Made by a program: the position numbers and the translations under genes. DNA of 64,000 nucleotides from assembly GCA_028286645.1 (NCBI GenBank), contig JAQBRF010000004.1:408942-472941 (forward strand). The letters run 5' to 3'. The stretch's first letter is position 1; the number at the start of each line of letters is the position of its first letter. The notes under the pieces are model-generated. The model was not told where the DNA came from. It saw only the letters and a program-made list of their open reading frames with translations, and ran no database searches. Shown here piece after piece: positions 1 to 48,069 of the stretch. The DNA comes from Candidatus Nomurabacteria bacterium. GTDB lineage: Bacteria > Patescibacteriota > Minisyncoccia > Phycocordibacterales > UBA5272.

Positions 1-27
1 TCTAAAATCTAAAGTCTAATATCTAGT

Positions 28-8005: not shown

Positions 8006-8653
8006 CTAGTTAGTTAAATCGTAGATACAGGCTGTTGTTCCTGTTACGGCTGACGTACAAGCTGTAGTGCTCGTATCAATTCCACCTCCGAAATCTCCCG
8101 TGGCCCCAGTAGAAACAGGCTGTCCCGCTTCGTTAGCAAAATAATTCGTATGGCTTACGGTACATGCTGTTATACATGTATAAGGAATTGAACCTGTTGT
8201 TTGATCTACACAAGGCTTTGCAGTTCCGGTGAGCGCCGTAGTTACGCCTCCGCAGTCTGCGTCATCATTTAAACCCTGGTTTGATGACTCCAGCTTAACA
8301 CCTAAGTGATACCCGATTCGTCGATTGTTTGCACCTGGGTCTGTATAAACCGCATACATATACTTATCTCTAGCAGCAACAGTTGACGAAGCATTTGTAG
8401 GAAGAGCTTGTAGATATCTTGGGGCGAGACTAGAAAGATCAGGCGGGTAATCTCCGCCATTGTCTTCTGCATAAAGCTGTAAAGCGGTCGAAATAGCGCG
8501 AAGGTCTGCAACCTTCTTTGCATCTCTTCCTTTTCTTCTAGATTCTGTGATCGGTGCTGCTATAACCGTTGAAAGAAGGCCGATAATTGCGATCACCACC
8601 AGGAGTTCGATGAGGGTGAATCCTTTGAAACTTTTTTTTAATATTTTTGACAT
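8006..8653 (-). CDS. pilA: type IV major pilin (paralog 1)
   Basis: KGFTLIELLVVIAIIGLLS N-methylation motif. 215 aa. C-terminal Cys pair. Confidence 0.8.
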   Translation of the reverse strand: MSKILKKSFKGFTLIELLVVIAIIGLLSTVIAAPITESRRKGRDAKKVADLRAISTALQLYAEDNGGDYPPDLSSLAPRYLQALPTNASSTVAARDKYMYAVYTDPGANNRRIGYHLGVKLESSNQGLNDDADCGGVTTALTGTAKPCVDQTTGSIPYTCITACTVSHTNYFANEAGQPVSTGATGDFGGGIDTSTTACTSAVTGTTACIYDLTN

Positions 8654-8750
8654 AGTTAGTATTATAAATTTCTATCTTGATTAGACTGAGCTAATTATAA
8701 ACCCTCTAGGGTAAATCACAAGCTTAGATGTGGATATCTTAATAAGATAA

Positions 8751-9404
8751 CTAATTAGTTAAATCATATATACATGCCGCAGGAGTGCTTACAAGAACAG
8801 ATGTACAAGCCGTTGTGCCTGTATCTTGTCCTCCGCCAAAATCGCTATTTATACTTGAAGCAGGAGGATACCCGGCATCACCAACTACCCATGTTGGGTT
8901 ACTTGCAGTACAGGCGATTATACATGTATAAGGAATAGCTCCTGTAGTCTGGTTGACACAAGGTTTTGAACTTCCCCCCATAGCAAAATCGAAAGCCCCT
9001 CCACAGTCCGCATCATCGTTTAGCGCCTGATTCGCAGATTCTAATTTTACTCCTAAATGATAACCAATACGTCTATTATTTGCCCCAGGGTCAGCAAAGA
9101 CTGTATACATATATTTATCTCTAGCACTTGCTGAAGACCAAGCATTAGCAGGCAAAGATTGTAGATACCTAGGAACAAGAGATGAAATATCGGGCGGATA
9201 TTCTCCCGCATTATCATCGGCATACAATTGTATGGCTGTAGAGATTGAGCGTAGATCGGCGATTTTCTTTGCATCTCTTCCTTTTCTTCTAGACTCTGTA
9301 ATAGGAGCCGCTATAACAGTTGAAAGAAGTCCGATAATTGCGATCACCACCAGGAGTTCGATGAGGGTGAATCCTTTGAAACTTTTTTTGGAAATTTTAA
9401 ACAT
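8751..9404 (-). CDS. pilA: type IV major pilin (paralog 2)
   Basis: First ~125 aa nearly identical to 8006..8653. C-terminal ~90 aa divergent. 217 aa. Confidence 0.8.
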   Translation of the reverse strand: MFKISKKSFKGFTLIELLVVIAIIGLLSTVIAAPITESRRKGRDAKKIADLRSISTAIQLYADDNAGEYPPDISSLVPRYLQSLPANAWSSASARDKYMYTVFADPGANNRRIGYHLGVKLESANQALNDDADCGGAFDFAMGGSSKPCVNQTTGAIPYTCIIACTASNPTWVVGDAGYPPASSINSDFGGGQDTGTTACTSVLVSTPAACIYDLTN

Positions 9405-10660: not shown

Positions 10661-11718
10661 TATAGTAATCGATCAAATAATGATGGCCGTCTGATATGGC
10701 CTTGTACATCATCCTTATTAACTTCTCCCTTTCTTATTAGTTCAGCCAAATTTCGATCAAGATCAATCATGCCATCCTTTGAGCCAGTCTCTATAAGAAC
10801 ATCAATTTCATGCGTTCTCTTTTCTCTAATAAGATTTGATACGGCAGAAGTGTTTAATAAAAGCTCAAACACTGGGATAAGACCACCAGAAATTCTAGGA
10901 ATTAATCTTTGAGAAAGCACTCCAATGAGTGATGAAGCCAGCTGTAATCTGATTTGTGACTGCTGTTCTGCCGGGAAAATATCAATAATTCTATCTATTG
11001 TTTGCGCGGCTGAGTTTGTGTGGAGGGTAGATAAAACCAGATGCCCCGTTTCTGCCGCAGTAACTGCTGCAGAAATAGTTTCCAAATCACGCATTTCACC
11101 GATCATGATAACATCCGCATCTTGTCTAAATACATGACCAAGAGCGGTATGGAAATCTTTTGTATCCACTCCGACCTCTCTTTGTTCAATTAGAGCTTTA
11201 TTTGGATCAAATCTAAACTCAATCGGATCTTCGATGGTGATGATATGCCTTTTCGCTTCTGAGTTAATCAAGTCCACCATGGAAGCAATTGTAGTAGACT
11301 TTCCTTGTCCCACGGGACCTACTACCAAGAAAAATCCCTGGCGCTCTCTGGCGATTTGAATTAATTGTTCAGGAAGATTAAGCTCAGCTATTGTTTTAAC
11401 TTTTGGAATAAGTCTTAGAGCAACAGAAATAAACCCTCTTTGAAATGATGCGTTTCCTCTTAATCGATATTCTTTCTTATGTTCATATGAGAAATCAAGT
11501 TCCTGATTTACCACGAAATCAGTAAGAGCTTTTTCTCCCACCATAATGCGTAAAAATCCTAAAGTATCTTCCGCGCTTAATTCTTTTTTTCGAGTTAAAG
11601 GAATGAGTTCGCGATTTACTCGAACAGTCGGGAAAGTACCAACAGTAAAATGAATATCAGACCCAGCTTCTTTAACCAGAGTCATTATTAAATCATCGAG
11701 CTCGTTTTCGTAATTCAT
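10660..11718 (-). CDS. pilT: twitching-motility/retraction ATPase (PilT family)
   Basis: 352 aa. Walker A GPVGQGKSTT, Asp box, His box. Size typical of PilT/PilU, not PilB. Preceded by the heptad leader motif. Confidence 0.85.
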   Translation of the reverse strand: MNYENELDDLIMTLVKEAGSDIHFTVGTFPTVRVNRELIPLTRKKELSAEDTLGFLRIMVGEKALTDFVVNQELDFSYEHKKEYRLRGNASFQRGFISVALRLIPKVKTIAELNLPEQLIQIARERQGFFLVVGPVGQGKSTTIASMVDLINSEAKRHIITIEDPIEFRFDPNKALIEQREVGVDTKDFHTALGHVFRQDADVIMIGEMRDLETISAAVTAAETGHLVLSTLHTNSAAQTIDRIIDIFPAEQQSQIRLQLASSLIGVLSQRLIPRISGGLIPVFELLLNTSAVSNLIREKRTHEIDVLIETGSKDGMIDLDRNLAELIRKGEVNKDDVQGHIRRPSLFDRLL

Positions 11719-11937
11719 AGGGATAGATAGTAGACGTTAGACATTAGATGTTAGAAAATACAAATTCTATGCATGATGCTAGTATAAACCGGAAATGTGT
11801 AAAGACAATTGAATAAGTCACAGAAACGAGATGCTAAGGACTAGGCGTTAGGTTTTAGGTGTTAAAATACTAAAGTTACAAATGCAATATATAAATACTT
11901 AGAATTTTCCGTTTCAATAAATTTAATAACTAAACAA

Positions 11938-11975
11938 AAACCCCGTTTCATCACCGGGGGGTGACGAAACGGGTT
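11938..11975 (-). terminator. rho-independent terminator of the GC-rich gene
   Basis: 16-bp perfect stem AACCCGTTTCGTCACC/GGTGATGAAACGGGGTT followed by a T-run on the minus strand. Confidence 0.6.
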
Positions 11976-11980
11976 GTAAA

Positions 11981-12514
11981 TCACCCGGGAGCAGAACACT
12001 CCGGGAATTTCGAGAAGATCTCCTTCTGAAGACCTGTGAGGTAAACGACACGAAACCAGAAAGGAGGAAAAATGCCGTGGCAGTTATGTTTTATGGCCTC
12101 CACGTTAGCTGACCATTCGTCGACCCTGCGGCTCTTTCTCATAAGTTCGGCGACTTCTTCCTCGCTCATGCCGTAGCGCTCGTGTTCTTCCTTTGCGCAC
12201 GCCTCCTGGAGGAGCCGATACCCTTCACGGATGAAAAGCTCCATGTGATTATGGTAGACACTTCCAGGACGAACGTCCCGAGGTTGGCCTTCGAGGTATT
12301 GCGCAGTACTCGGTGACCCTTCGCAGCTCTTTTCCCCCTCAATGTCATACCACGGCAGAAGATGCCGGGCTGACGCAGTAAAGCAGGTGGCATTGCCGGC
12401 ATAGAGCCCGACGTACGCAGCGTTGTTGCGATCCGGGACCGGAGTACGGCATTTGTCGCAGAGCGGCTTTCCTTTGTCGTTGTATTCGGTAATTACTGTA
12501 AAGACAAGCATGAC
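11981..12514 (-). CDS. hypothetical protein on a GC-rich islet (likely horizontally acquired)
   Basis: ORF with GGAGA RBS before the internal Met (MLVFTVITEY...). GC clearly above flanks. Own strong terminator. No recognisable domain. Confidence 0.5.
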   Translation of the reverse strand, partial: VMLVFTVITEYNDKGKPLCDKCRTPVPDRNNAAYVGLYAGNATCFTASARHLLPWYDIEGEKSCEGSPSTAQYLEGQPRDVRPGSVYHNHMELFIREGYRLLQEACAKEEHERYGMSEEEVAELMRKSRRVDEWSANVEAIKHNCHGIFPPFWFRVVYLTGLQKEIFSKFPECSAPG

Positions 12515-12828
12515 GGTCTCCTTCAAATTTAGTGTGCGTTTCCGCACCCTAAAGAAGAAAATCACCATTTAAGACTGGGTGCGGTTCTGATTGATCCAAG
12601 AAAGTTGTTAGCTGTGCTTCATGATTCCCCCCACATAAAAATGAGCAGATAAATACAGTATAACATATTTGCCCGATATTGTCAATATTGAAAATCCCCT
12701 ATTTATTATGGCCATATTTCGGAATTGGTTAGAAAATAAGATGAGTACAATGCAAAGGAATTTTTTGAGACTAAAACGTACATACGTTGCGTGAGCAAAA
12801 GATTCTCTTAACGGAATAATCGCTTATA

Positions 12829-12944
12829 TTAAAGACTTAAATTTGCTACAGATACGCGAAGCCTAGGAATCTTTTTGAAGAAGTGTACAAAGAAGTACAT
12901 TGATGAAAAAAATTCTGTAGCGACAAAGTAGATGGAGTAAATTT
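12829..12944. mobile_element. MITE-like element: ~116 bp bounded by 15-22 bp terminal inverted repeats (copy 1)
   Basis: ATTAAAGACTTAAATTTGCTACAG ... CTGTAGC ... AAATTTAAGTCTTTAA. Internal TGTAC-N6-GTACA palindrome. Core ~70% identical to 47626..47680. Confidence 0.4.
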
Positions 12945-12950
12945 AAGTCT

Positions 12951-14699
12951 TTAAAGTTCGTTAATTTCGACAAAGGGAATCAGGCCGTTTATAGACTTGA
13001 TAATCGCATCCTCCTTCATGGTCATCATTCCATTCGCACGTGCTAGATGCCAGATTTCTTCCTCTCCCTTGCTGTGAAGCACAGCATCCTGAATAGGAGG
13101 AGTAAATGTCAGCACTTCAAATACAGGCACTCTTCCTTTCATTCCTGTTGGAAACTTTTCAGATGTTTTTACTTCATTTAACGGTTTATCAAGCGGAAGC
13201 TTGGATTTAAATTGCTCCGGCAGATCTTTAAACTGCTCTGCAATCATTTCTTTCATTCCATCATTTATTTCCATCGGCTTTGCACAACCTTCTGCGATGC
13301 CTCTCGAAAGTCTCTGCCCAATAGTTGCGATAATCGTTGGAGCTATCAAGTATGGCTCAATACCCATGTCTAACAGTCTTGTAATCACCCCTACGGCAGT
13401 GTTGGTGTGAATAGTAGAAAACACCAAGTGTCCCGTAAGCGCGGCTTGTATGGCCAGCTGCGCGGTTTCTGCGTCGCGTATTTCTCCTACCATGATTACA
13501 TCGGGGTCCTGGCGAAGAATAGATCGGAGACCAGAAGCAAATGTATATCCAATTTCTGGAAATATTTGCGATTGGTTCATGCTTGGAACGTTGTATTCTA
13601 TCGGATCTTCAAGAGAAACCACATTTCGGTGTTCTCGGTCAATCTCATTTAACATGGCATAAAGAGTGGTGGTTTTACCAGATCCAGTAGGTCCGCAGAT
13701 TAGTATTATTCCATAAGGCCTTGCTAGAGCATTTCGAATTTCTTTCATTTGTCCATCAGAGAAACCAAGAGTATCAACTGGACGCACTCCTTTATAGCTG
13801 TCCAATATACGTATCACCACCTTTTCCCCATAATATCCAGGGAATGTAGACACACGGTAGTCAATAGTGTGGTCTCCGAACTTTGTACTGAATCTTCCAT
13901 CTTGAGGCTTTCTCTTTTCGTCGAGCTTCATTCCGCAAAGAATCTTTACGCGCGCGAGCAGCATGGGATGCATTTTAACGGGAAGAGTGGTTATAGTTTC
14001 TAGCTGCCCATCAAGTCTGACTCTGGCCCGCACCCCTGTTCCGATATGTTCAATATGAATATCAGATGCTCCGTTATCAATAGCATAACGTAAAATAATA
14101 CTAAATATTTCCGGAATAGAAAGCTTAGCAAGATCGCTATCCAGCCCTGCACTTGTTACCGCCGTTAAATCAATATCTTCTCCAGTAGTCTCTTTCCCTT
14201 TTTCTCCATCGTCTTTAGATATATACGAAAGTACTTCATCTCCCACCTTATCTGTAAGACTGGTCTTTTCAAGTGGGGCGTCAGAGTTTATTCCAAAGTG
14301 CTTTTTATATGCGTCATATGTAATTAAAAATACTTTGTATGCAATATGATCCTTGCCGAAAAGGAATTGAAGACTGTCTAGAACATTTGCATGCTCTGGA
14401 TCTACCACTCCTACAGTTACCACTCCATCTTTTTCAGATAAAGGAACAGAGAGCAACTGCTTAGATTGTTGAACGCTTATATATTTTGTTAATTCTTTGT
14501 CATCTGATATATCACCTTTAAATATAGGCAGCCCGTAAAGAATGCTTCTTACCTCCGTGATTTCCTCTGTTGTAATGTTTTTCTTAACTAAAATAGAATC
14601 AACCAAGATATCATCGCGCACTGAAATATCAGACTCAATGTCTTTAGCTTCAAGCTCGGTTAATTTATTTTGACTAACGAAGAGGTCTAGAAGAAGCAT
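12951..14699 (-). CDS. pilB: type IV pilus assembly ATPase (GspE/PilB family)
   Basis: 582 aa. N-terminal T2SSE_N domain, Walker A GPTGSGKTTT, tetracysteine-less CPR-style C-terminus. Confidence 0.9.
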   Translation of the reverse strand: MLLLDLFVSQNKLTELEAKDIESDISVRDDILVDSILVKKNITTEEITEVRSILYGLPIFKGDISDDKELTKYISVQQSKQLLSVPLSEKDGVVTVGVVDPEHANVLDSLQFLFGKDHIAYKVFLITYDAYKKHFGINSDAPLEKTSLTDKVGDEVLSYISKDDGEKGKETTGEDIDLTAVTSAGLDSDLAKLSIPEIFSIILRYAIDNGASDIHIEHIGTGVRARVRLDGQLETITTLPVKMHPMLLARVKILCGMKLDEKRKPQDGRFSTKFGDHTIDYRVSTFPGYYGEKVVIRILDSYKGVRPVDTLGFSDGQMKEIRNALARPYGIILICGPTGSGKTTTLYAMLNEIDREHRNVVSLEDPIEYNVPSMNQSQIFPEIGYTFASGLRSILRQDPDVIMVGEIRDAETAQLAIQAALTGHLVFSTIHTNTAVGVITRLLDMGIEPYLIAPTIIATIGQRLSRGIAEGCAKPMEINDGMKEMIAEQFKDLPEQFKSKLPLDKPLNEVKTSEKFPTGMKGRVPVFEVLTFTPPIQDAVLHSKGEEEIWHLARANGMMTMKEDAIIKSINGLIPFVEINEL

Positions 14700-19156: not shown

Positions 19157-19203
19157 ATAGCTATATAGCAGGCATTAGATTTTAGACGTTAGATAATACA
19201 TTT

Positions 19204-19770
19204 TTAATACTTTCGAAAGAGTTTTTTGAAATCTTCTTCCATATAATATTTAACTAAATTGTACGCGATAATATATACAGTGCCTACAATAAACACTTCC
19301 CAGATACCAGTTACATAAGAATAAATAAGTGTAGGAATAACATAGTACCAAGCCAATTCGGAAATAATGTGCACAAAGCTATGATCTCTTACCTTATCTC
19401 CAAAGTAATCTTTCATTGCACCGAATATACTGAATACCAAGAAAAAAGTAATAAAACTAGTTGGTTCTATTGTTTGAGTAAATAAGAATGTAATAATTAT
19501 TATCACGGTTGCGATAGCATGATTCCAGTAGTCTATTCTCATTCTTACGATAAAGGCGAGAACCATTGCCATAACCAGATTGGCTACATATATATTTGAA
19601 ATAATTAAAAGAGCACCAAATAAGCCCCAGAGTATTCCCATCATTATGATTGCTCCTTTAAACCATTCCCTTACTCCATGCTCATTGAATAGATCTGCCA
19701 TCTTCATAGACGATCCATACAATAAAGAAAGTGTAATTAAAATCGGAATTGAGGATAAATAGATAATCAT
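19204..19770 (-). CDS. hypothetical membrane protein
   Basis: 188 aa, 5-6 TM helices. Confidence 0.4.
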   Translation of the reverse strand: MIIYLSSIPILITLSLLYGSSMKMADLFNEHGVREWFKGAIIMMGILWGLFGALLIISNIYVANLVMAMVLAFIVRMRIDYWNHAIATVIIIITFLFTQTIEPTSFITFFLVFSIFGAMKDYFGDKVRDHSFVHIISELAWYYVIPTLIYSYVTGIWEVFIVGTVYIIAYNLVKYYMEEDFKKLFRKY

Positions 19771-20662: not shown

Positions 20663-21304
20663 TTATTTAATTGTTTGGACCATTTGATCTACAATCTTTC
20701 CTATATCAAATGTTGCTCGCTCATTTTCACATGTTGTTTTGTTTGGCTCATCATAATTTCCACACTGGATAAATCGCAAGCTAAATGTAAAGGTTAGCGC
20801 TACTTCTTTAGGATTATATGGAAATGTATACGCATACATTGTATACATACTTCCGGCGGCTCCTTCTGATCTTTTCGTCACACAATATGTGTGCCCATTA
20901 ATTAGTTGTACTTTAGTGATTCCACCCGAGGCAGTTTCAGACCCGGCCTCTGTACAATCAAAGACTTCGTCCGTGGCTTGAAGTATGGGTGGCCAATCAG
21001 TTTGAATTATATATGGTGTTGAAATGCTTTTCGGATATTTAAATGTTAAAGACAGCTCATCACTTGAACTGCTGGTTCCCCAGCTGCTGGTATCAAGTTG
21101 CGGACACTCTGCAAATTCACACATTGGGCCGCCTCTTCCTACACTAGATCCATCCGGACAAATCTTGGCTTCCGTAGTACATGCCGTTGGTTCATTGTCA
21201 TTGCTCTTAGAGACATACTGAGACCATGCCAAACCTCCTACCACTATTATTAATAAGATAACCACAATAGGAACAATGAGGCTTTTATTTTGTTTAGATT
21301 CCAC
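20663..21304 (-). CDS. membrane-anchored Cys-containing secreted protein, paralog B
   Basis: 213 aa. Clear sequence similarity to 19952..20599 over the C-terminal ~130 aa. Confidence 0.5.
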   Translation of the reverse strand: MESKQNKSLIVPIVVILLIIVVGGLAWSQYVSKSNDNEPTACTTEAKICPDGSSVGRGGPMCEFAECPQLDTSSWGTSSSSDELSLTFKYPKSISTPYIIQTDWPPILQATDEVFDCTEAGSETASGGITKVQLINGHTYCVTKRSEGAAGSMYTMYAYTFPYNPKEVALTFTFSLRFIQCGNYDEPNKTTCENERATFDIGKIVDQMVQTIK

Positions 21305-21369
21305 ATACTTAGTTTAACAGTTAAATAAGTAAGTTGTGACGATAACAATAGGAATCAATAAACCAGACA

Positions 21370-21400
21370 AATAAAAAAGTCCTCGCGCACGCGCGAGGGC
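21370..21400 (-). terminator. rho-independent terminator
   Basis: CCTCGCGCACGCGCGAGG hairpin followed by a T-run on the minus strand. Confidence 0.5.
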
Positions 21401-21423
21401 TTGATCATCATGTGAGTGCCAGC

Positions 21424-21633
21424 TCAGATGATGATCTCTTTTGGTTGAGGAACGACTTCGTACACCGGCACCGGCAAGTCCGGGTATGTCTGGTACATCG
21501 TCGGCGACGGAACTGGTACTTGTTGCACAGGTGCCGGTTGCTTGACCTGCGACATCATCATCGCAAACACGCTGATCGCTATGATCGCGAGCGAACACGT
21601 CTTCACCACGTCCGAAAAGTCAGTCCAATTCAT
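21424..21633 (-). CDS. small Pro-rich secreted protein (GC-rich islet)
   Basis: 69 aa, signal-peptide-like N-terminus, AAGGGAGAG RBS 6 nt upstream. Confidence 0.45.
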   Translation of the reverse strand: MNWTDFSDVVKTCSLAIIAISVFAMMMSQVKQPAPVQQVPVPSPTMYQTYPDLPVPVYEVVPQPKEIII

Positions 21634-21671
21634 GTTGCTCTCCCTTCTTGGTTATGAGTGATCGAGAGCAT

Positions 21672-22094
21672 CTAGCCAAGCCAGCCAGCGTAAGTGAGAA
21701 ACGTGGTCTCGCGTTTGTGGAAGTCGTATTGCAATGTTTCGGGGTGATCTCCTGGGCTCGTGATCATGATGATACCAATCGCATCCCGTTTAATCGCGGA
21801 GAACACATGCGTTTGTGTTGCAGGATCTCTGGTCACCACAAGCGTACTCCGATAAATCTCGCGCGTGCGTTTGTAGCTGCCCACATTTTCGATCTCGCTC
21901 ACGGTGACATTGTACGTCCCGGGAGCCTTGAAGTGCACTGTGTAGGCGGCGGCTTTTTCATCCCAGCCGTCTTTCGAAGGCTGCACGATGACCCGGCCTC
22001 CGAACATTGGAATATCCCTGGTCTTGTCTCCGTAGACTTGTGTGAAGTAAAAAGCCCCTACTGCCAGTATAAATAATGCAAAAAGCCATCTCAT
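21672..22094 (-). CDS. secreted hypothetical protein (GC-rich islet)
   Basis: 140 aa, signal peptide MRWLFALFILAVGAF, AAGGAAAGGGA RBS. Confidence 0.5.
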   Translation of the reverse strand: MRWLFALFILAVGAFYFTQVYGDKTRDIPMFGGRVIVQPSKDGWDEKAAAYTVHFKAPGTYNVTVSEIENVGSYKRTREIYRSTLVVTRDPATQTHVFSAIKRDAIGIIMITSPGDHPETLQYDFHKRETTFLTYAGWLG

Positions 22095-22197
22095 ATTCCC
22101 TTTCCTTTTCTTTTAAATTAATCAAAGGCGCAAGCGCCGACAGGTTGTATACAATCAAATATATTAGATCATGTTTGTCAATATAAGAAAATTACAA

Positions 22198-22635
22198 CTA
22201 AACACTTTTCTGAATAATCGAAAATATGTTTTTATTTATAAAATTCTCTGGTATTTCATTTGATTTAAACCATTTCCACTCACCGAATTTCTCCGGCTCC
22301 ATGAGCTTTGCTTCTTGATTTGTAGAACATACAAAAACTTCTACAATATCTCCCTCCTTTGCTCCATCTACCTTTCCAATATATTCTTCAATTTTAAGAT
22401 CTGTGATTCCGGTCTCTTCTTCTGTTTCTCTTTTTAAGCATTCTTCTACAGTTTCTCCTTCATCGCCCCTTCCTCCTGGAGTTGTCCAAAATGATCCTAT
22501 CCATTTGTCTGGTGTGTAGTTGCGCAATCCTAATAATATTTTCCCATCACGAATTATAAGCGCCGAAGTTGCTGTCTCGCGGGTTACTTGTGTTTTTAAA
22601 ATTTGGTCCATGTGAAAAAAGTATATCAGTTTCAT
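22198..22635 (-). CDS. NUDIX hydrolase
   Basis: Nudix box GGRGDEGETVEECLKRETEEETGI. AT-rich native composition. TAG stop. Confidence 0.8.
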   Translation of the reverse strand: MKLIYFFHMDQILKTQVTRETATSALIIRDGKILLGLRNYTPDKWIGSFWTTPGGRGDEGETVEECLKRETEEETGITDLKIEEYIGKVDGAKEGDIVEVFVCSTNQEAKLMEPEKFGEWKWFKSNEIPENFINKNIFSIIQKSV

Positions 22636-22682
22636 TTTACAAAAAGAAAAGCTCCGACCGAAGCCGGAGGTTGTCGTCTGTA

Positions 22683-23375
22683 CTAACGTGGGCGACGGGT
22701 GCGCGTACCGAGGAAGCTGGATGCGATGAGGACATCGACTATTCCGCGGTCAGAACCGCCGAGCGAACTTGCGAAGATCGACGCCATCAATGCATCCACA
22801 CCTCCGCTGCCAGAGGACTGTTTCGAACAGGCTACACCATAGGCGCAGATGAGCTCGACGATGAGGCGCATTTGAGGCCCCTCGAGTTTCACCCCTTCCA
22901 GCGCCAAACCGACAGCGAGCTGCATGTTCTGCATACGCACTTCCGGCTCCGGTGGGTACATGGCGCCCGCAAGCAGCGCCTCGAGTTGGGCGATTTTTTT
23001 GTTGTTGCGTTGTGCGCCGAGAGTCTTCCAGTCCGCCAACTGGAAGGGAGCATCGGAGGGCTGCGGTAAGCTTTGATACCACCCGAGCTCTTCGACACCC
23101 GCGGCGACCATCACGGTGCTGTCGGGCCGAATGTGGTCATGAGGACGGCCGTCTTGATCGATGAAGTAAGGCGCTTCCCACGTGTAGGGGCTGCACACAT
23201 CCTTCGCGAGGTAGATCCTCGAAGCTCTGAAGGAGAGATCGAAGGCTCCGTTTTCATGTTTCTTGAGGACCAACACTTTCGTGTCGGCGCATTCGTCGCA
23301 GCCGAAGCCCGTGATCACATCTCCCGGACGCAGGGTCGAGCTGCTCATGGCTTCGCCAACCTTTTTCGTGTGCAT
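22683..23375 (-). CDS. hypothetical protein (GC-rich islet)
   Basis: 230 aa, AAAGGAA RBS, downstream hairpin+T-run terminator at ~22646-22680. No recognisable domain. Confidence 0.5.
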   Translation of the reverse strand: MHTKKVGEAMSSSTLRPGDVITGFGCDECADTKVLVLKKHENGAFDLSFRASRIYLAKDVCSPYTWEAPYFIDQDGRPHDHIRPDSTVMVAAGVEELGWYQSLPQPSDAPFQLADWKTLGAQRNNKKIAQLEALLAGAMYPPEPEVRMQNMQLAVGLALEGVKLEGPQMRLIVELICAYGVACSKQSSGSGGVDALMASIFASSLGGSDRGIVDVLIASSFLGTRTRRPR

Positions 23376-23529
23376 CGCATTCCTTTCTATAGTGTTTGTG
23401 TTGAAATGAGCGCTTCTACTTATTTAAGTAAACAGTACTTCACCACCCTAACAATAAAATCATAATTTGTCAATGAGAGTATAAAAAGAAAAGCCCGTCT
23501 TGCGACGGGTGTGTTTGAAACGGGGGTGA

Positions 23530-23976
23530 TTACTCCCACCATTTCCAGAATGGGAAGAGAGCGCCGATACCGAAGCTCCCGAAACGAATGCCCCCGCCAC
23601 CGGCCAGGCAACCGAATCCGCCGAGGCAAGCGCCGACCGTTACGAAGAGAAATCCGATGTCGAGGTTCGGCCCGATGTAAAAGGCCACTCTCTTGTACCA
23701 GGCCTTACCTGCCGCTTTCTCGGCGGCCAGAGCAAGCTCCGGAAGTAAAAGGGGGAGAATGCGCATTGCACGGATTGCCTTCGGGATATTCCGGAAAGGA
23801 ACCTGAATCATTCGCCTTTCGTCGAGGATTCCTCCGACACTATCCGCGATGCTCGCCAGAACATCTCCACCTCCCCCGCCGCCATCACCCGTGGAAATAT
23901 CGTCTGAGATACCGCTGCCTTCTCCCAGGATTCCTCCAAGGTCGATCACGATCCCTAATGCCACGCCGAAATGCAT
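23530..23976 (-). CDS. glycine-rich protein with GxxxG-rich hydrophobic C-terminus
   Basis: GGGAGGG RBS before MHFGVALG. poly-Gly stretch. C-terminal FLFVTVGACLGGFGCLAGGGGIRFGSFGIGALFPFWKWWE. Confidence 0.45.
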   Translation of the reverse strand: MHFGVALGIVIDLGGILGEGSGISDDISTGDGGGGGGDVLASIADSVGGILDERRMIQVPFRNIPKAIRAMRILPLLLPELALAAEKAAGKAWYKRVAFYIGPNLDIGFLFVTVGACLGGFGCLAGGGGIRFGSFGIGALFPFWKWWE

Positions 23977-24066
23977 AATGTGCCCTCCCAAAATTCCAAC
24001 TGTTACAGAAGCAACCGAAGTTGACTAGTTATAAACTATAATACCATTAATGTTCTGTCAATTACA

Positions 24067-24113
24067 CCTAAACACTGCTTCTATATTATTCCATCTGGGT
24101 CTAGAACGAATAC
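24067..24113 (-). repeat. degenerate copy C of the VOC-gene 3' end (att-like direct repeat)
   Basis: ~45/48 identical to 25845..25893 with one 1-nt deletion. Similarity extends ~15 bp past the former stop codon. Confidence 0.6.
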
Positions 24114-24157
24114 ATCTAATAGTTTTCTCAAATACAAAAGAAAAACCGCACCTGCTT

Positions 24158-24616
24158 TCAGTGCGGACAAGGAACATCTGTGTTAATCTCCATATCGAAA
24201 TACTCATGGAGCATTTGCGGTTCTACTCTAAATATTTTGTATGGAATGATGGGCGTGGTAGCCACATAGAAAAGTCCATTCCGTACAGGTGCAAAATATT
24301 CGCGCGGAAGAACGTACACATAACCCGTGCGATAGCGCACATTCCTTCCTGTTACGATAACCTTGCGGTTGCGTAACCCCCAATGAAGGTACCCGTGCTT
24401 GCTCCGTATACGGAGTACTGCGTGAAGGATAGCTATCCCGGATGATGTTGTTGCATAGATTGCGTTTAAATTATTCTCCGGAATCCCCGTCGTGCAAATC
24501 GCTTTTCTCGGCTCCACTTTACTAAGTAGCCACGGCGAGCCATGAAATAAAAAATTCTCTCGGTCAATGCGTATCAAAGGATATACGTTCGATATTCTCT
24601 TTTGAATTGCTCTCAT
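24158..24616 (-). CDS. hypothetical protein (cassette A, GC-rich)
   Basis: GGAGAAG RBS before the second Met (MRAIQKRIS...). 152 aa. Confidence 0.45.
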   Translation of the reverse strand: MRAIQKRISNVYPLIRIDRENFLFHGSPWLLSKVEPRKAICTTGIPENNLNAIYATTSSGIAILHAVLRIRSKHGYLHWGLRNRKVIVTGRNVRYRTGYVYVLPREYFAPVRNGLFYVATTPIIPYKIFRVEPQMLHEYFDMEINTDVPCPH

Positions 24617-24679
24617 GATACTTCTCCGCATGTAGTGGTTTCTATCAAACTACAGCACAGATGATACTTAGTCAATCAT

Positions 24680-24728
24680 CCCTAAACACTGCTTCTATAT
24701 TATTTACATTTGGATCTAGGACGAATGC
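24680..24728 (-). repeat. copy B of the VOC-gene 3' end (att-like direct repeat)
   Basis: 47/49 identical to 25845..25893. Encodes AFVLDPNVNNIEAVFRDD*. Confidence 0.65.
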
Positions 24729-24796
24729 AGGAGTAACTTCAATTATAAAAAAAATAGACCACCGAGGTGGTCTATTACTCGGCGCGGAAGAGGTCC

Positions 24797-25237
24797 TTAC
24801 TCTTCGTATACGCGCAGAATCTTGATGAACGGATAGCGTTTGGCGCTGTACGCGTAACCCCGCATGATGTCTCTCATGCCGCGGTACTCTTCATCGTAAC
24901 CGTGGTTGTACGAAATGCGATTTGCCCACCAGTAATACCTGAATCCTTCGGTGCGGACAAACACTTCGTACTCTTCTGGCACAAACTGCACCAGTCTGCA
25001 GTTGAAGGCACGACTTGTCGTGGTTATGCACACTCGTAGCGGGGTGGTGGTGACTTTCGCCACCTTCACCCATGGAGCTGATAAATTCCAGCCCGGCGTG
25101 TCACGCTTCACCTCGCCCGTAAATGCATTTCGCATGATACCTACCTGAGTGGGCTCGCTATGATGCATGAACGGAAAGTAGATGAGCGCGCCGAGGAGAA
25201 GAAGGGCGCCGGCAACGAGGATGTGTAGATGCTTCAC
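24797..25237 (-). CDS. membrane-anchored hypothetical protein (cassette B, paralog 1)
   Basis: GTG start overlapping the upstream stop (GTGA). N-terminal TM. Shared motifs P..VCI......NC.LVQF and YAY.....YPF with 25234..25752. Confidence 0.5.
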   Translation of the reverse strand: MKHLHILVAGALLLLGALIYFPFMHHSEPTQVGIMRNAFTGEVKRDTPGWNLSAPWVKVAKVTTTPLRVCITTTSRAFNCRLVQFVPEEYEVFVRTEGFRYYWWANRISYNHGYDEEYRGMRDIMRGYAYSAKRYPFIKILRVYEE

Positions 25238-25752
25238 TTGGCATCCTCGTTCTTGAGTTCTCGCACGACGGAAAGGAATGGATATATCTTCCCCGTTCCT
25301 TCGTATGCGTAACTCTTGAGGATTTCGGAAAAGTCCGTTGTTCTTTCTTTTCCGCCCTTTCTACTACCTCCGGTTCCCGGCCCTTCGTAGTCCCGCCGGC
25401 CATGCCAGGAAAGGAAGAGATCGAGTCCCTTCGCATTGAACTGCACAAGCTTGCAGTTGAGCACACGCTGATTCGCATTGATGCACACCTGCATCGGCCG
25501 CAAGTCGACCGTATGATACTGCTCGACGATCGGCGTTCGTACGAAGTAGCCGGTCCTCTCGAGTGTCGTGATCTTCCCAGTGCGGGTATTGAACACATAG
25601 CCCTGTTGGTAGGTGTCGACGAACTGGACAAACCATATCCAGGTCACGCCGATGATCACGAGTGCAATGATGGTGAGTCCCGCCAGAAAATACCCCAACT
25701 TTAGCCAGAGCCTGCGCGAATTGAAGCCCTCTTTCATACTTTTCTCAGCCAT
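25234..25752 (-). CDS. membrane-anchored hypothetical protein (cassette B, paralog 2)
   Basis: AGAGGA RBS. 172 aa. N-terminal TM. Weak SPFH/band-7-like pattern (low confidence). Confidence 0.5.
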   Translation of the reverse strand: MAEKSMKEGFNSRRLWLKLGYFLAGLTIIALVIIGVTWIWFVQFVDTYQQGYVFNTRTGKITTLERTGYFVRTPIVEQYHTVDLRPMQVCINANQRVLNCKLVQFNAKGLDLFLSWHGRRDYEGPGTGGSRKGGKERTTDFSEILKSYAYEGTGKIYPFLSVVRELKNEDAK

Positions 25753-25833
25753 TATGAATGTCCTCTTGTGTCGTTAATCGGAACAGCCCACATGCACTGT
25801 CTAGAATTACACTATAATATCTTCCGATGTTCG

Positions 25834-28256: not shown

Positions 28257-28604
28257 TTACATCCCGCCCTTGCTCACTTCCATGATATCTATGAAAGATG
28301 TTGGAATTGCGAAATGAGGATTTTCCTTAAACATTTCAGTAACTTCTTCAGCAGATTCAGCTTGTACGATGCACATATAATTCATGTCATTCGTTACTGG
28401 CTTTGCTCCAGTTGCGTCCACTCGAGTATTCTTCCCAAGAGGAAGTCCTTCACCCACAAATGATGCTTTATGCTTTTCCGTCCACGCCATCATATCAGCT
28501 CCTAGCTTCTCCCCTTGTTCCTTCATTTTCTCCGGTGGAGTATTCTTCTTCCACTCTTCCATTGTCTCCACAGGCACACGATATATAATTACAAATTTTT
28601 TCAT
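28257..28604 (-). CDS. hypothetical protein
   Basis: 115-aa ORF divergent from the cassette array. No motif. Confidence 0.45.
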   Translation of the reverse strand: MKKFVIIYRVPVETMEEWKKNTPPEKMKEQGEKLGADMMAWTEKHKASFVGEGLPLGKNTRVDATGAKPVTNDMNYMCIVQAESAEEVTEMFKENPHFAIPTSFIDIMEVSKGGM

Positions 28605-28622
28605 ATGTATATTCTAGCACAT

Positions 28623-28651
28623 TGCCTTATTTTCTTTTATGTTGTAGATTC
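28623..28651 (+). promoter_or_regulatory. promoter of cassette 1 (TTGCCT-N17-TAGATT)
   Basis: Same -35/-10 architecture and spacing as the intercistronic modules R1-R4. Confidence 0.45.
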
Positions 28652-28681
28652 AAGGAGATAGATCACAGGGAGATTTGTGCC

Positions 28682-28915: not shown

Positions 28916-28931
28916 CGGCATCCCTGCAATA

Positions 28932-28998: not shown

Positions 28999-29035
28999 AA
29001 TGCACCGTACCTAACTCGCCTGAGGAGACATCACA

Positions 29036-46895: not shown

Positions 46896-46933
46896 TTAAA
46901 AATAAATCCGCCGATCTTGCGACCAGCGGCATT

Positions 46934-47470
46934 TCATCTCCTCCACGAAATCACAGCAAGATGTTCAGAGTTGTCGCCAGCATTAAGGACACTGGCTCCG
47001 AGTTTTTCATACCAAGCAGACAACTCCGGCTCGCACACCCCCCATAACACGGGGTGGACCTCAAGGACTTTTCGGACAGAACGCCGCACGATCTCCGCCC
47101 CCCAACCCTCACCCCTTTTCACATTACGCACATGAAGACATGTAATGTATGAAGCCCCTGTGGCTTCAAGAGTGGATTGCATGTATTTTAGATCTGGGTC
47201 GGTGAATCTTTCAGGAGATTGTTCGAAGTGAAGAACCCCACCGAAAAATTCTCTGTCCATTCCGGACGTAAGAAACTGATATGGCAGGATGGTGCCCGGA
47301 TCGCAGCCGATAGTGCGGTAAATCTCCCTTTCGAAATGCCGGCCATTTGTACAGAACGAGAGATGATTTAATGGCTTAAGCCAAGGTATTACAGGCCCAA
47401 ACTCATTCATAAGCTGAATAAACTGCAAGAGAAAGGCTCTCCCGCTGACATCTTTTTTCAAAAGAAGCAT
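46934..47470 (-). CDS. GNAT-like acetyltransferase, tentative (GC-rich islet)
   Basis: Elevated GC versus flanks. RGEGWGAEIV resembles GNAT motif A. Confidence 0.35.
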   Translation of the reverse strand: MLLLKKDVSGRAFLLQFIQLMNEFGPVIPWLKPLNHLSFCTNGRHFEREIYRTIGCDPGTILPYQFLTSGMDREFFGGVLHFEQSPERFTDPDLKYMQSTLEATGASYITCLHVRNVKRGEGWGAEIVRRSVRKVLEVHPVLWGVCEPELSAWYEKLGASVLNAGDNSEHLAVISWRR

Positions 47471-47585
47471 GTTAGCACCTCAAATCATTGTTTATCTTGT
47501 TCTAATATATTAAAAGCTGTCTGTCAATTTATAATAAGCGCAATGAATCTTTAGAATGAGATATCTTCCTTTTTTAAATTATTCT

Positions 47586-47692
47586 GAATTCGAGGGCGGG
47601 AGAGGTTTTGAAAGAAACGTACACAGAAGTACATAGAGGAGAAACTTAGACTAGCAACAAAGAAGCCGGATAATTTAAGAAGAGAGAAAACA
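47586..47692. mobile_element. MITE-like element copy 2 (shorter terminal inverted repeats)
   Basis: TTAAAATTAT ... ATAATTTAA termini. Core GTACACAGAAGTACATAGAGGAG...TAGCAACAAAG homologous to copy 1. Confidence 0.35.
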
Positions 47693-47752
47693 AAAATCGC
47701 TTCGTGGGAGTGAAGCGATTTTTGTAAATTGAACCAAGTGAGACTATGCTCT

Positions 47753-47830
47753 CTTAGCGCTCTTTCGTTTTGCAACTTTCTTCTTTGAAGATTTCTTTGC
47801 TGCTTTCTTTTTTGCTGCCATAAAATTTTA
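47753..47830 (-). CDS. possible 25-aa Lys/Ala-rich micro-ORF (very tentative)
   Basis: ATG-MAAKKKAAKKSSKKKVAKRKSAKRA-TAG followed immediately by hairpin AAATCGCTTC/GAAGCGATTT+T-run. TATAAT 10 nt upstream, no SD. Confidence 0.2.
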
Positions 47831-48069
47831 TTATACAAATTTTTAGAGAGTGCTGGTAATATTGTTTTTGATCAGCGACCACTGATCACGTCTCTCTACT
47901 TATAAGTATGTCATGCATACAAACGTTAACAATAGTTTTTGTAACTTTATATGTGGATAACTTTTTTGTTTTCAGATTTATTTTTTATTTTTTTAATTGT
48001 TATATATGCAGATGCGAAGATTTCGCAAATATGAGTCATTAGTTATTGATTAATTAGTTATTAGTGAAT

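What the first reader, a model, noticed from the sequence alone, without database searches (positions are those of the whole stretch)
12829..12944. MITE-like inverted-repeat element present in at least two copies, each next to a GC-rich gene
Copy 1 (12829..12944):
- Perfect terminal inverted repeats TTAAAGACTTAAATTT / AAATTTAAGTCTTTAA.
- An inner inverted pair GCTACAG / CTGTAGC.
- A central TGTAC-N6-GTACA palindrome.

Copy 2 (47586..47692):
- A ~70% identical core, GTACA(A/C)AGAAGTACAT...TAGC(G/A)ACAAAG.
- Shorter imperfect terminal inverted repeats, TTAAAATTAT / ATAATTTAA.

Placement:
- Copy 1 lies ~310 bp upstream on the minus strand of the GC-rich gene at 11981..12514.
- Copy 2 lies ~115 bp upstream of the GC-rich gene at 46934..47470.
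- The shared placement suggests a mobilisable promoter or insulator element.
- Alternatively the whole unit could be a structured RNA (a long imperfect hairpin) or a transposon remnant.
Basis: seen in the sequence. Interest (0 to 1): 0.55.

Follow-up and report, generated by a model that had tools for sequence, protein, structure and literature searches.

The report
Mobile hairpin repeat with conserved core
The reported sequence is a real copy of a small non-coding hairpin repeat that comes and goes next to gene ends in these tiny bacteria, and its roughly 90-base core also turns up in unrelated bacteria and a phage without matching any catalogued RNA family.

Summary
Copy 2 is at 47574-47678. 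Their 65-nt match is not chance (BLAST E=6e-8 in the window).

- The window, from a Candidatus Nomurabacteria genome, holds a third, decayed copy at about 12731-12828, directly beside copy 1.
- Relatives show gain and loss. Copy 1 is absent after pilB in four related genomes, while the decayed copy and copy 2 have orthologs in some relatives. One related genome has four copies at four gene ends.
- The same ~88-nt inner module occurs in a Melainabacteria MAG, a phage structural-gene contig, and in at least 50 copies in one high-GC bacterium.
- The module has two tandem G.A motifs, an A-rich loop and a GUAC-loop-GUAC apex. It is 78-83% identical at non-orthologous loci where synonymous sites are saturated.
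- Outer stems differ completely between copies and partly copy host flank.
- Rfam has no match.
- The link to GC-rich genes is coincidental, and a promoter or insulator role is not supported.

Best reading: an ERIC/Correia-like mobile hairpin element built around a selected single-strand (probably RNA) structure. The mobilising mechanism is unknown.

The parts
12829..12954 (+). Copy 1 (c1): complete 126-nt hairpin element, subfamily A. It is a young insertion between the pilB stop codon and the older copy c0.
   Evidence: Sequence. MFE -41.4 kcal/mol, z=-7.6. CM R1 129.7 bits. Absent after pilB in L002, L004, L005 and L087.
12829..12844 (+). c1 outer-stem 5' arm, TTAAAGACTTAAATTT.
   Evidence: Perfect complement of 12939-12954. 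Unrelated to the outer stems of the other copies (35-43% identity).
12939..12954 (+). c1 outer-stem 3' arm, AAATTTAAGTCTTTAA. It overlaps the pilB stop codon (12951-12953 on the minus strand).
12849..12933 (+). c1 conserved inner module. It comprises helix CAGAUAC (12849-12855) : GUAGAUG (12927-12933) with a central tandem G.A; an asymmetric A-rich loop (GCGACAAAG); helix P2; a double tandem G.A (GAAGA 12877-12881 / GAUGA 12902-12906); and the apex.
   Evidence: Alignments A4, A5 and A7. 78-83% identical to L084:1824-1951 and L087:18379-18505, against 28-43% identity at 4-fold synonymous sites.
12882..12901 (+). c1 apex: 7-bp helix AGUGUAC / GUACAUU closing the hexaloop AAAGAA.
   Evidence: The 3rd-from-base pair is U-A in most copies, C-G in L084-1 and C.A in c2.
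12731..12828 (+). Copy 0 (c0): decayed older copy, subfamily B, with a 5-nt deletion in the apex. It is the ortholog of the intact element after pilB in L087 and of the decayed remnant in L002.
   Evidence: A6 alignment. CM R2, not trained on it, gives 26 bits, E=3e-4 at 12741-12823. BLAST to L002.
47574..47678 (+). Copy 2 (c2): 105-nt hairpin element, subfamily B, with weaker stems. Apex AACGUAC-ACAGAA-GUACAUA at 47616-47635.
   Evidence: CM R1 98.4 bits and R2 68.5 bits. The same site is occupied in L084 (intact) and L083 (decayed), and empty in L082 and L085.
47690..47725 (-). Intrinsic terminator of the 25-aa Lys-rich ORF. It is usable in both directions and lies immediately 3' of c2.
   Evidence: Conserved in L082-L085.
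47744..47821 (-). Conserved 25-aa Lys-rich ORF whose 3' end marks the c2 insertion site. This is context, not part of the element.
   Evidence: Sequence. Conserved in L082-L085.
11942..12700 (-). GC-rich cassette 1: promoter 12685..12657, ORF 11981-12514, terminator 11973..11942. It is a separate insertion and not part of the element.
   Evidence: c0 lies between it and c1.
46908..47540 (-). GC-rich cassette 2: ORF 46934-47470, terminator 46929..46908. It is separate from the element.
   Evidence: L083 and L084 have the element at this site with no such gene.

Best explanation
The finding is one young copy (c1) of a small non-coding hairpin repeat family. The family behaves like a bacterial MITE of the ERIC/Correia type, but it is built around a strongly conserved, structured ~88-nt inner module.

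**Shown**
- The window has three copies, all on the + strand: c1, a decayed neighbour c0, and c2.
- Related genomes gain and lose copies at gene 3' ends.
- The inner module is kept across Nomurabacteria, a Melainabacteria MAG, a phage contig and a high-GC bacterium in which it is a high-copy repeat.
- From base to tip the module is: a helix with tandem G.A; an A-rich asymmetric loop; a variable helix; a second tandem G.A; a 7-bp GUAC helix; and a 5-7-nt loop.
- The outer 16-22-bp stem is different in every copy and can include the host gene's last codons plus their inverted copy.

**Inferred**
- The inner module is the selected and mobile unit.
- It acts as a folded single strand, RNA or ssDNA, of the purine-rich strand.
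- The perfect 'terminal inverted repeats' are made locally. They arise either by insertion into an existing end-of-gene hairpin or by replication template switching that extends the palindrome. They are not transposase-binding ends.
- The enzyme that moves the element is unknown.
- Its effect on neighbouring genes, if any, would come from placing a very stable hairpin just beyond a stop codon.
For: **Real repeat.** c1 against c2 gives E=6e-8. The third copy c0 is found by an independent model.

**Gain and loss**
- c1 is absent after pilB in L002, L004, L005 and L087.
- c0 is orthologous to L087:11759-11882 (intact) and to a decayed remnant in L002.
- The c2 site is occupied in L084 (intact) and L083 (decayed) and empty in L082 and L085.
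- L084/L087, which are one genome, have four copies at four different gene ends.

**High copy number elsewhere**
- At least 50 copies in metagenome Ga0074195. Contigs break inside them, and truncated and internally deleted variants exist.

**Breadth**
- L007, a Melainabacteria MAG: 47 bits.
- Phage contig L080: two copies.
- Other contigs: L009, L014, L051, L060, L068.

**Constraint**
- Subfamily-A inner modules are 78-83% identical at three non-orthologous loci. 4-fold synonymous sites of pilB and valS between the same genomes are 43% and 28% identical.
- Outer stems are at chance identity, 35-43%.

**Structure**
- 90% of cells are paired, against 73% in shuffles and 36-52% when partners are slid. 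23/42 pairs change on both sides (MAFFT alignment).
- On the model-fitted alignment: 88% against 60%, and 37/42 pairs.
- The purine-rich strand is more stable than its complement in 14 of the 16 elements folded, by 2-21 kcal/mol (all 10, 4 of 6); L080:6468-6595 and the decayed L083 copy fold slightly better on the complement.

**Host-derived outer stem**
- In L084:7948-8074 the arm ACCATAAGCC... contains LepA's ancestral K-P-stop codons, and the other arm is its inverted copy.

**Not catalogued.** No Rfam family matches.
Against: - No target-site duplication can be demonstrated. TA/TTAA at the ends of c1, c2 and L014 is palindromic and so ambiguous, and it is absent at L084-1 and L084-2.
- Terminal repeats are not shared between copies, unlike classical MITEs.
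- No transposase, HUH, recombinase or reverse-transcriptase gene was found next to any copy. Whole genomes could not be searched.
- Copy number in the Nomurabacteria-like genomes is low, roughly 1 per 10-30 kb sampled. Two of the sites are old and vertically inherited, so much of the pattern could be slow decay of functional loci rather than transposition.
- Strong conservation of an elaborate fold is more than a selfish DNA repeat needs, and it points to an RNA function.
- At 7 of 10 independent loci the better-folding strand is antisense to the flanking genes. Co-transcription would therefore yield the weaker complement.
Confidence: 0.55

Rival explanations
1. It is a family of functional structured RNAs, a small RNA gene or a cis-acting RNA motif, possibly protein-binding or catalytic. 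Copies are duplicated and horizontally spread genes rather than selfish DNA. The outer stem only closes the fold.
For: - Elaborate conserved architecture with two tandem G.A motifs, a conserved A-rich asymmetric loop, and G.U/A-U/G-C and U-A/C-G exchanges in the apex helix.
- Purifying selection on the inner module.
- Strand asymmetry of folding.
- c2 and L084-1 have a sigma70-like site upstream on the same strand and an intrinsic terminator right after. For c2 this is TTTATA-18-TAGAAT at 47528..47557, followed by the hairpin plus T-run at 47697-47726.
- Presence in a phage, as with many small ribozymes and RNA motifs.
Against: - c1, c0, L014 and the phage copies have no convincing promoter or terminator of their own.
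- At least 50 dispersed copies with truncations and internal deletions in one genome is repeat-like, not gene-like.
- The apex loop is not conserved within the Nomurabacteria clade: ACACTA, ACTTA, ACATA, ATAATCC.
- Some copies are visibly decaying (c0, L083, L002).
- No Rfam match and no expression data.
Confidence: 0.25
2. They are ordinary end-of-gene hairpins, acting as terminators or 3'-end stabilisers. Replication template switching generates and reshapes them in place. The shared core would reflect a common ancestral terminator motif, with no mobility.
For: - Most copies start 0-12 nt from a stop codon.
- These genomes routinely have lineage-specific perfect palindromes that include a gene's end. 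Examples are all LepA orthologs, tRNA 53374-53446 with palindrome 53438-53492, and 51796-51845.
- Template switching is a documented way to create perfect stems (PMC8794818).
Against: - The same ~88-nt inner sequence (about 80% identical) sits at non-orthologous loci, and in different phyla and a phage. In-situ origin cannot explain this.
- c1 lacks a T-run.
- Two copies sit inside a phage structural operon, where termination is not expected.
- c1 was added next to an already present copy.
Confidence: 0.08
3. The conserved apex is a DNA site, not an RNA. GGTGTAC-N6-GTACATT is a 7-6-7 inverted core like a tyrosine-recombinase or HUH-nuclease site. It would be presented on a cruciform or ssDNA hairpin and used by an unidentified recombinase for insertion.
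For: - The 7-6-7 geometry with an asymmetric spacer.
- Orientation bias relative to gene direction, and hence to replication: 7 antisense to 3 sense. This resembles elements that transpose through single-stranded DNA.
- Location at or in hairpins, as with elements that target palindromes.
Against: - No recombinase or HUH gene was seen near any copy.
- The arms of the core match only through G.T pairs, which makes them poor as duplex inverted binding sites.
- The spacer and loop vary in length (5-7 nt) within the clade.
- Conservation extends far beyond the core to loops that make sense only in a folded strand.
Confidence: 0.07
4. One reading: a mobilisable promoter or insulator cassette that travels with, or serves, the adjacent GC-rich genes.
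For: - In the window both c1 and c2 lie upstream of a GC-rich ORF on the minus strand.
- In the unrelated high-GC organism the related repeat ends exactly 13 nt upstream of host -35 boxes.
Against: - Each GC-rich gene has its own promoter between itself and the element.
- c0 separates c1 from cassette 1.
- Relatives have the element without a GC gene, and a GC gene without the element.
- No conserved promoter hexamers occur inside the element across copies.
Confidence: 0.03

Closest known systems
ERIC / IRU (enterobacterial repetitive intergenic consensus, 127 bp)
   Same: Almost the same size (126 against 127 bp). Both are imperfect palindromes forming one long stem-loop with purine-purine mismatches. 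Both are strictly intergenic and close to gene ends, occur in either orientation, and have variants with internal deletions or insertions. A conserved centre matters more than the ends. (Features of ERIC from PMC2229807.)
   Different: - No sequence similarity.
- ERIC is confined to enterobacteria and vibrios, whereas this core spans CPR bacteria, Melainabacteria, a phage and a high-GC bacterium.
- ERIC ends and TA duplication are family-wide. Here the outer stems are copy-specific and a TSD is unproven.
Correia / NEMIS elements (Neisseria) and RUP (S. pneumoniae)
   Same: Hairpin-forming non-coding repeats of about 100-155 bp in intergenic DNA, with short and long forms differing by an internal segment and A+T-rich TA termini (c1, c2, L014). 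(PMC2229807.)
   Different: - Those have conserved 9-26-bp TIRs matching an IS (IS630-Spn1 for RUP) and clear TA duplications.
- Neither feature holds here, and no partner IS was found.
YPAL / RU-2 (Yersinia) and REP/REPIN elements
   Same: [quoted passage not shown] REPs sit just downstream of genes as hairpins. This resembles the element's position in or at end-of-gene hairpins.
   Different: - REPs are 20-40 nt, GC-rich, GTAG/CGTC-tagged and tied to RAYT transposases (PMC3733652).
- YPAL is 168 bp with direct duplications of 3-26 bp.
- None of these traits was found here.
Stem-loop guide units of TIGR-Tas systems and box C/D-type RNAs
   Same: Hairpin RNAs with conserved short motifs in internal loops, reported from phages and parasitic bacteria (PMC12045711). 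c1 even reads UGAUGA (box C-like) opposite UGA.
   Different: - TIGR units form regular arrays next to a Nop-domain gene and carry variable 9-nt spacers.
- Here copies are solitary and dispersed, their internal loops are conserved rather than variable, and no adjacent Nop gene was seen.
- The tandem G.A motifs sit in continuous helices without the 3-nt bulge of a K-turn.
Small self-cleaving ribozymes and orphan RNA motifs of phages and bacteria (hairpin, twister, pistol, hatchet; RAGATH motifs)
   Same: Compact, highly conserved folds scattered in intergenic DNA of phages and bacteria, sometimes multi-copy. The architecture of two internal loops along one hairpin recalls the hinged hairpin ribozyme. 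(Own knowledge.)
   Different: No Rfam model matches even at E<=10. No cleavage-site signature was recognised, and activity is untested.

Membership tests
Bacterial MITE (ERIC/Correia/RUP type; criteria from PMC2229807) | Small (<200 bp), non-coding, A+T-rich; the transcript or strand folds into one long stem-loop. | tested here: met
   126, 105 and about 98 nt. GC 0.30-0.36. MFE z=-7.6 for c1. The short minus-strand ORFs are not conserved (see Tried and rejected).
Bacterial MITE (ERIC/Correia/RUP type) | Terminal inverted repeats shared by the copies of the family. | tested here: not met
   Each copy has inverted ends, but they are unrelated between copies (35-43% identity). L084-2's ends are host LepA sequence.
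Bacterial MITE (ERIC/Correia/RUP type) | Target-site duplication (typically TA). | tested here: inconclusive
   TA/TTAA flanks c1, c2, L014 and L009 but is palindromic and extends the stem. It is absent at L084-1 and L084-2. No exact empty site is available.
Bacterial MITE (ERIC/Correia/RUP type) | Multiple dispersed copies and filled/empty sites between related genomes. | tested here: met
   3 copies in the window, 4 in the L084/L087 genome, at least 50 in Ga0074195. Presence and absence seen at the pilB, small-ORF and LepA sites.
Bacterial MITE (ERIC/Correia/RUP type) | A related autonomous IS with matching ends. | tested here: inconclusive
   None found within the fetched loci. Complete genomes could not be scanned.
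REP / REPIN (RAYT-mobilised) | 20-40-nt GC-rich palindrome with a GTAG or CGTC head; RAYT gene in the genome. | tested here: not met
   The element is about 105-130 nt and AT-rich, with no conserved GTAG head across copies. A RAYT gene was not searched for genome-wide.
Integron attC site | R''/R' core sites RYYYAAC...GTTRRRY at the base of the stem, a variable apex, and a position downstream of a promoterless cassette next to intI. | tested here: not met
   No GTTRRRY at the stem base. Conservation is at the apex, not the base. The neighbouring GC-rich ORFs have their own promoters.
Any Rfam 15 RNA family (including 6S, hairpin, twister, pistol and hatchet ribozymes, and C/D RNAs) | Score at or above the family's gathering threshold. 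| tested here: not met
   No hit at the elements at gathering score. At E<=10 there were only chance snoRNA/sRNA hits of 13-20 bits.
Intrinsic (Rho-independent) terminator | GC-rich stem immediately followed by a T-run. | tested here: not met
   No terminator call at c1. At c2 the terminator is a separate hairpin at 47690-47725.
TIGR array / tigRNA stem-loop unit | Regular array of units with variable dual spacers, adjacent to a Nop-domain (Tas) gene. | tested here: not met
   Copies are solitary and their internal loops are conserved. Genes flanking c1 and c2 are pilB, pilT, SET, a methyltransferase and orphan ORFs. The whole window was not scanned for Nop domains.

The most novel reading that the evidence does not exclude
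The ~88-nt inner module is a previously uncatalogued class of structured nucleic acid. It is most likely an RNA with two tandem G.A motifs, an A-rich internal loop and a GUAC-closed apex. It would bind a conserved factor or be catalytic, and it would spread horizontally across bacterial phyla, CPR included, and phages by seating itself in end-of-gene hairpins. In one lineage it has become a high-copy repeat that lands exactly 13 nt upstream of promoter -35 boxes.
Probability: 0.3. Interest if true: 0.8.

Novelty: new variant of a known kind. Interest (0 to 1): 0.6.

Why it matters
- Candidate Phyla Radiation genomes are thought to be nearly free of repeats and mobile DNA. Here a small hairpin element is seen being gained, inherited and decaying at gene ends.
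- Its core is kept across very distant hosts and a phage while neutral sites are saturated. Something selects that fold: its own propagation machinery, or a host or phage factor.
- The result gives three things: a concrete, testable RNA/DNA motif absent from Rfam; a worked case in which 'perfect terminal inverted repeats' are made from host flank rather than being transposase sites; and, in another organism, a repeat with single-nucleotide-precise placement relative to promoters.
- Practically, such hairpins break assemblies and can mislead annotation of terminators, small ORFs and sRNAs.

Tried and rejected
1. **Small ORF on the minus strand.** The candidates are c1 MYFFVHFFKKIPRLRVSVANLSL, c2 MYFCVRFFQNL... 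and L014 MYFCVHLGLFF.... The shared N-terminus simply mirrors the conserved nucleotides. There is no ribosome-binding site. The ends differ, and in the high-GC family the frame either runs on or stops after 16 codons. Rejected.

2. **Rfam.** Searched at gathering score and at permissive thresholds on the window and on seven other loci. Nothing found.

3. **Literal sequence search of 8 million papers.** Six core variants searched. Nothing found.

4. **Genome contigs pattern scan.** It returned only 2 hits. One (L008, a Coxiella endosymbiont) is chance. The other (L007) I first dismissed and later confirmed with the model.

5. **Viral-contig scan.** Five of 6 hits are chance matches inside genes. 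Only L080 is real.

6. **Promoter inside the element.** The candidates are TTGAAG-15-TACATT in c1 and TTGAAA-16-TACATA in c2. They are absent in GC-rich members. Rejected.

7. **TA or TTAA target duplication.** Cannot be separated from stem extension, and absent in L084 copies.

8. **My earlier reading of 12770-12828 as plain ancestral spacer.** This was wrong. The region is a decayed copy, c0.

9. **Transposase hunt.** Clustering ORFs near the 66 metagenome loci gave only kinases, sigma54 activators and metabolic enzymes.

10. **Resemblances judged coincidental or untestable.** These were 5S rRNA (GUAGCG...GAUGG.AGU, in subfamily A only), the CsrA SELEX hairpin, boxB, SECIS, IHF sites and dif.

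11. **Apex-helix covariation alone.** Not significant. The support comes from the other helices.

12. **GC-rich ORFs.** No Pfam, NCBIfam or PADLOC hit.

13. **Look-up of the window's last gene, to extend the genome.** Not on record.
Full report
**1. What is in the sequence**

The window is from a Candidatus Nomurabacteria (Patescibacteria/CPR) genome. Its PilB and ValS are 100% identical to proteins of an NCBI MAG contig of 514 kb.

Copy 1 (c1):
- It is a 126-nt imperfect palindrome at 12829-12954.
- The right arm contains the stop codon of pilB, which is on the minus strand.
- It folds far better than shuffled sequence: -41.4 kcal/mol, z=-7.6.

Copy 2 (c2):
- It is a weaker 105-nt hairpin at 47574-47678.
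- It folds at -20.2 kcal/mol, z=-2.8.

The two copies share a 65-nt ungapped stretch at 72% identity. BLAST gives E=5.8e-8 against the window, with the next-best hit at about 0.1. The similarity is real and is not A/T-rich low complexity.

**2. The link to GC-rich genes is coincidental**

- Both GC-rich ORFs (11981-12514 and 46934-47470, minus strand) have their own sigma70-like promoter and their own terminator. Both signals lie on the gene side of the element.
- Neither protein matches Pfam, NCBIfam or PADLOC.
- In relatives reached through PilB and ValS homologs, pilB is followed directly by pilT (L002, L004).
- In L005 a different GC-rich gene occupies that gap without the element.
- The element occurs at the c2 site, after pilB, after LepA and after a 209-aa gene with no GC-rich gene nearby.

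**3. A third copy, and gain and loss**

- The stretch between c1 and GC cassette 1 (about 12731-12828) aligns along its length with an intact element that sits right after pilB in relative L087 (11759-11882).
- It also aligns with a decayed remnant in L002.
- The window version (c0) has lost 5 nt of the apex.
- A covariance model that was not trained on c0 finds it at 26 bits, E=3e-4. The next hit in the window scores 14 bits.
- c1 is therefore a second, younger insertion placed between the pilB stop codon and an old copy.
- The c2 site lies just beyond the terminator of a conserved 25-aa Lys-rich ORF. It is occupied by an intact element in L084 and a decayed one in L083, and it is empty in L082 and L085.
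- L084 and L087 come from one genome (GCA_023267475.1). Together they carry four copies at four gene ends.
- No further copy is present in the window.

**4. A family that reaches far beyond this genome**

A 19-base pattern from the positions shared by c1 and c2 was scanned against public contigs.
- In metagenome contigs it hit 66 loci.
- About 50 of these are one high-copy repeat of a single high-GC organism in metagenome Ga0074195. Contigs often end inside the repeat. Truncated copies and copies lacking the apex also exist.
- That organism is rich in Ser/Thr kinases and sigma54 activators, so it is not a CPR bacterium.
- Independent hairpin-embedded instances occur in L009/L052/L061, L014, L051, L060 and L068.
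- The model R1 later confirmed a Candidatus Melainabacteria MAG (L007, 47 bits).
- It also confirmed two copies in a phage contig that encodes portal and capsid proteins (L080).
- Several pattern hits are plain chance: L008, L019, L022, L053, L065 and five of the six viral hits.

**5. Anatomy**

Aligning 14 members shows the following, from base to tip:
- (a) An outer stem of 9-22 bp. It is often perfect and differs in every copy.
- (b) A helix of the form CAGAUAC:GUAGAUG with a central tandem G.A. Its flanking pairs covary: A-U to G-C, and C-G to G-C.
- (c) An asymmetric loop, 5' C-N-A-G opposite 3' A-A-C-A-A, followed by a short GCG:CGC helix.
- (d) A helix P2 of 5-19 bp with free sequence.
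- (e) One or two tandem G.A steps. c1 has GA-A-GA opposite GA-U-GA.
- (f) A 7-bp apex helix, (G/A)(G/A)UGUAC : GUACAU(U/C).
- (g) A 5-7-nt loop. It is A-N-A-G-A-A in the cross-phylum hits. That is partly because the search pattern demanded it; within the clade the loop varies (ACACTA, ACTTA, ACATA, ATAATCC).

Pair counts:

| Alignment | Cells paired | In shuffles | Partners slid | Pairs changed on both sides | Shuffles reaching observed |
|---|---|---|---|---|---|
| MAFFT, four AT-rich members | 90% | 73% | 36-52% | 23 of 42 | 0/500 |
| Model-fitted, 16 rows | 88% | 60% | 35-47% | 37 of 42 | 0/500 |

- The apex helix taken alone shows only one-sided changes in the first set. L084-1 then supplies a true U-A to C-G exchange, with c2 as the C.A intermediate.
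- These counts prove a conserved hairpin. They do not say whether RNA or DNA folds.
- The fold is asymmetric. The strand reading GTACA.AGAAGTAC is more stable than its complement in 14 of the 16 elements tested (all ten, four of six). The exceptions are one phage copy and the decayed L083 copy. The asymmetry arises because tandem G.A and G.U pairs become U.C and A.C on the other strand.
- G.U pairs outnumber A.C mismatches 44 to 16. Of those G.U pairs, 16 sit at two conserved apex positions.

**6. The inner module is under constraint and the outer stems are not**

- Two subfamilies exist. Subfamily A (ACGCGAAGC...GCGACAAAGUAGAUG) contains c1, L084-1 and L087-third. Subfamily B (UCGAGGCGG...CCAACAAAGAAAUG) contains c2, c0, L087-pilB and L014. 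This explains why c1 and c2 are only 72% alike.
- The three A modules lie at non-orthologous loci in two genomes and are 78-83% identical.
- Between those same genomes, 4-fold synonymous sites of pilB and valS are only 43% and 28% identical.
- The outer stems of the same copies are at chance identity, 35-43%.
- In L084-2 the 5' arm ACCATAAGCCAAAAATTA begins inside LepA's last codons (K-P-stop, as in ortholog L082). The 3' arm is its exact inverted copy.
- In these genomes end-of-gene hairpins that include the stop codon are common and lineage-specific. Examples are the LepA orthologs and the tRNA-overlapping palindrome at 53438-53492.
- I therefore infer that the 'perfect TIRs' are made locally. 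Either the module lands in or next to an existing end-of-gene hairpin, or replication template switching copies one flank onto the other (mechanism described in PMC8794818). They are not transposase-binding ends. This step is inference.

**7. Position and orientation**

- Most copies begin 0-12 nt beyond a stop codon: c1, L014, both phage copies, L084-2, L087-third and L087-pilB.
- Counting independent loci, the better-folding strand is antisense to the neighbouring upstream gene at seven loci and sense at three.
- This bias is not statistically decisive. It argues against a simple role as the 3' hairpin of the upstream mRNA in its best-folding form.
- c2 and L084-1 have a promoter-like site upstream and a terminator directly downstream on the element's own strand. 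c1, c0, L014 and the phage copies do not.

**8. Comparison with known things**

- No Rfam 15 family matches at the curated score or at E<=10.
- A literal search of the paper library for six core variants found nothing.
- The closest known kind is the bacterial MITE-like hairpin repeat: ERIC (127 bp), Correia/NEMIS, RUP and YPAL. Their defining traits are summarised in PMC2229807: under 200 bp, non-coding, A+T-rich, TA termini, TIRs, TSD and long stem-loop transcripts.
- Size, non-coding nature, hairpin shape, dispersion and filled/empty sites are met.
- Family-wide TIRs are not met. TSD is inconclusive. A partner IS was not found.
- REP/RAYT, integron attC, intrinsic terminators and TIGR-Tas stem-loop arrays (PMC12045711) each fail at least one defining feature that was tested here.

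**9. Verdict**

It is a multi-copy, apparently mobile hairpin repeat. It is not tied to the GC-rich genes, its inverted ends are not what defines it, and a promoter or insulator role has no support.
- What defines it is a conserved structured core of unknown function, shared across phyla and a phage and absent from Rfam.
- I rate it a new variant of a known kind, with about a 30% chance that the core is a genuinely new functional RNA class.

**10. Limits**

- The source genome was not in the searchable genome collection, and only the window plus about 3 kb could be read.
- The cross-phylum set was found with a pattern that fixes the apex, so conservation of the loop is overstated.
- No expression data, no population data and no exact empty site were available.
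- Whole genomes could not be searched for a mobilising enzyme.

Noticed in passing
window 11942-12700, 46908-47540, about 21300-25800, 28600-30600, 31889-32170, 33771-34160, 53777-54073; L005 7750-8420: Small GC-rich orphan ORFs (GC 0.48-0.59 against a backbone of about 0.37) sit in intergenic gaps. The two examined each have their own sigma70-like promoter and GC-rich terminator, and neither matches Pfam, NCBIfam or PADLOC. Their flanks share repeats: D2 at 28926/30080/30541, and D12/D14/D16 at 24033/24647/25845. A relative has a different GC-rich gene in the same pilB-pilT gap.
   Followed up: partly
window 1-25, 1434-1458, 11714-11766, 19162-19204, 48848-48896: Runs of 7-nt repeats (TCTAA[A/C]N, read on the gene strand) lie immediately upstream of start codons. 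The pilT and valS leaders share a 42-nt, 98% match. L002 has a different heptamer (CTACACG-like) at the same place before pilT. This may be a leader or operator motif.
   Followed up: no
window 47744-47821 (minus strand): A 25-aa Lys-rich ORF (MAAKKKAAKKSSKKKVAKRKSAKRA) with its own promoter (47859..47830) and terminator (47725..47690). It is conserved, with variable length, in relatives L082-L085 and is not called as a gene by simple ORF listing.
   Followed up: partly
window 53438-53492 and 51796-51845; L084 6946-7017; LepA 3' ends in L081-L084 and window 55620-55660: Long, often perfect palindromes overlap the 3' end of a tRNA or the stop codons of genes. Their sequences are lineage-specific. 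This suggests end-of-gene hairpins are continually rebuilt from the gene's own last bases.
   Followed up: partly
L010-L074 (metagenome Ga0074195), e.g. L017 1110-1361, L018, L035, L057: The related high-copy repeat is a 75-nt 5' module plus a long hairpin. Its 3' end lies exactly 13 (+/-1) nt upstream of a -35 hexamer (TTGAC/TTGCC...) of a co-oriented promoter in at least 20 of 43 copies. Such precise placement suggests promoter-targeted insertion or a regulatory role.
   Followed up: partly
L080 1272-1402 and 6468-6595 (IMG/VR UViG_3300029572_000326): A phage structural module (portal, scaffold-like and major capsid-like genes) carries two copies of the element. Each begins at the stop codon of the preceding gene and is antisense to the operon.
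   Followed up: partly
window 8006-9404: Two adjacent paralogous pilin-like genes (300-nt repeat at 74% identity, D1/D6/D15) lie in the type IV pilus cluster that surrounds copy 1.
   Followed up: no
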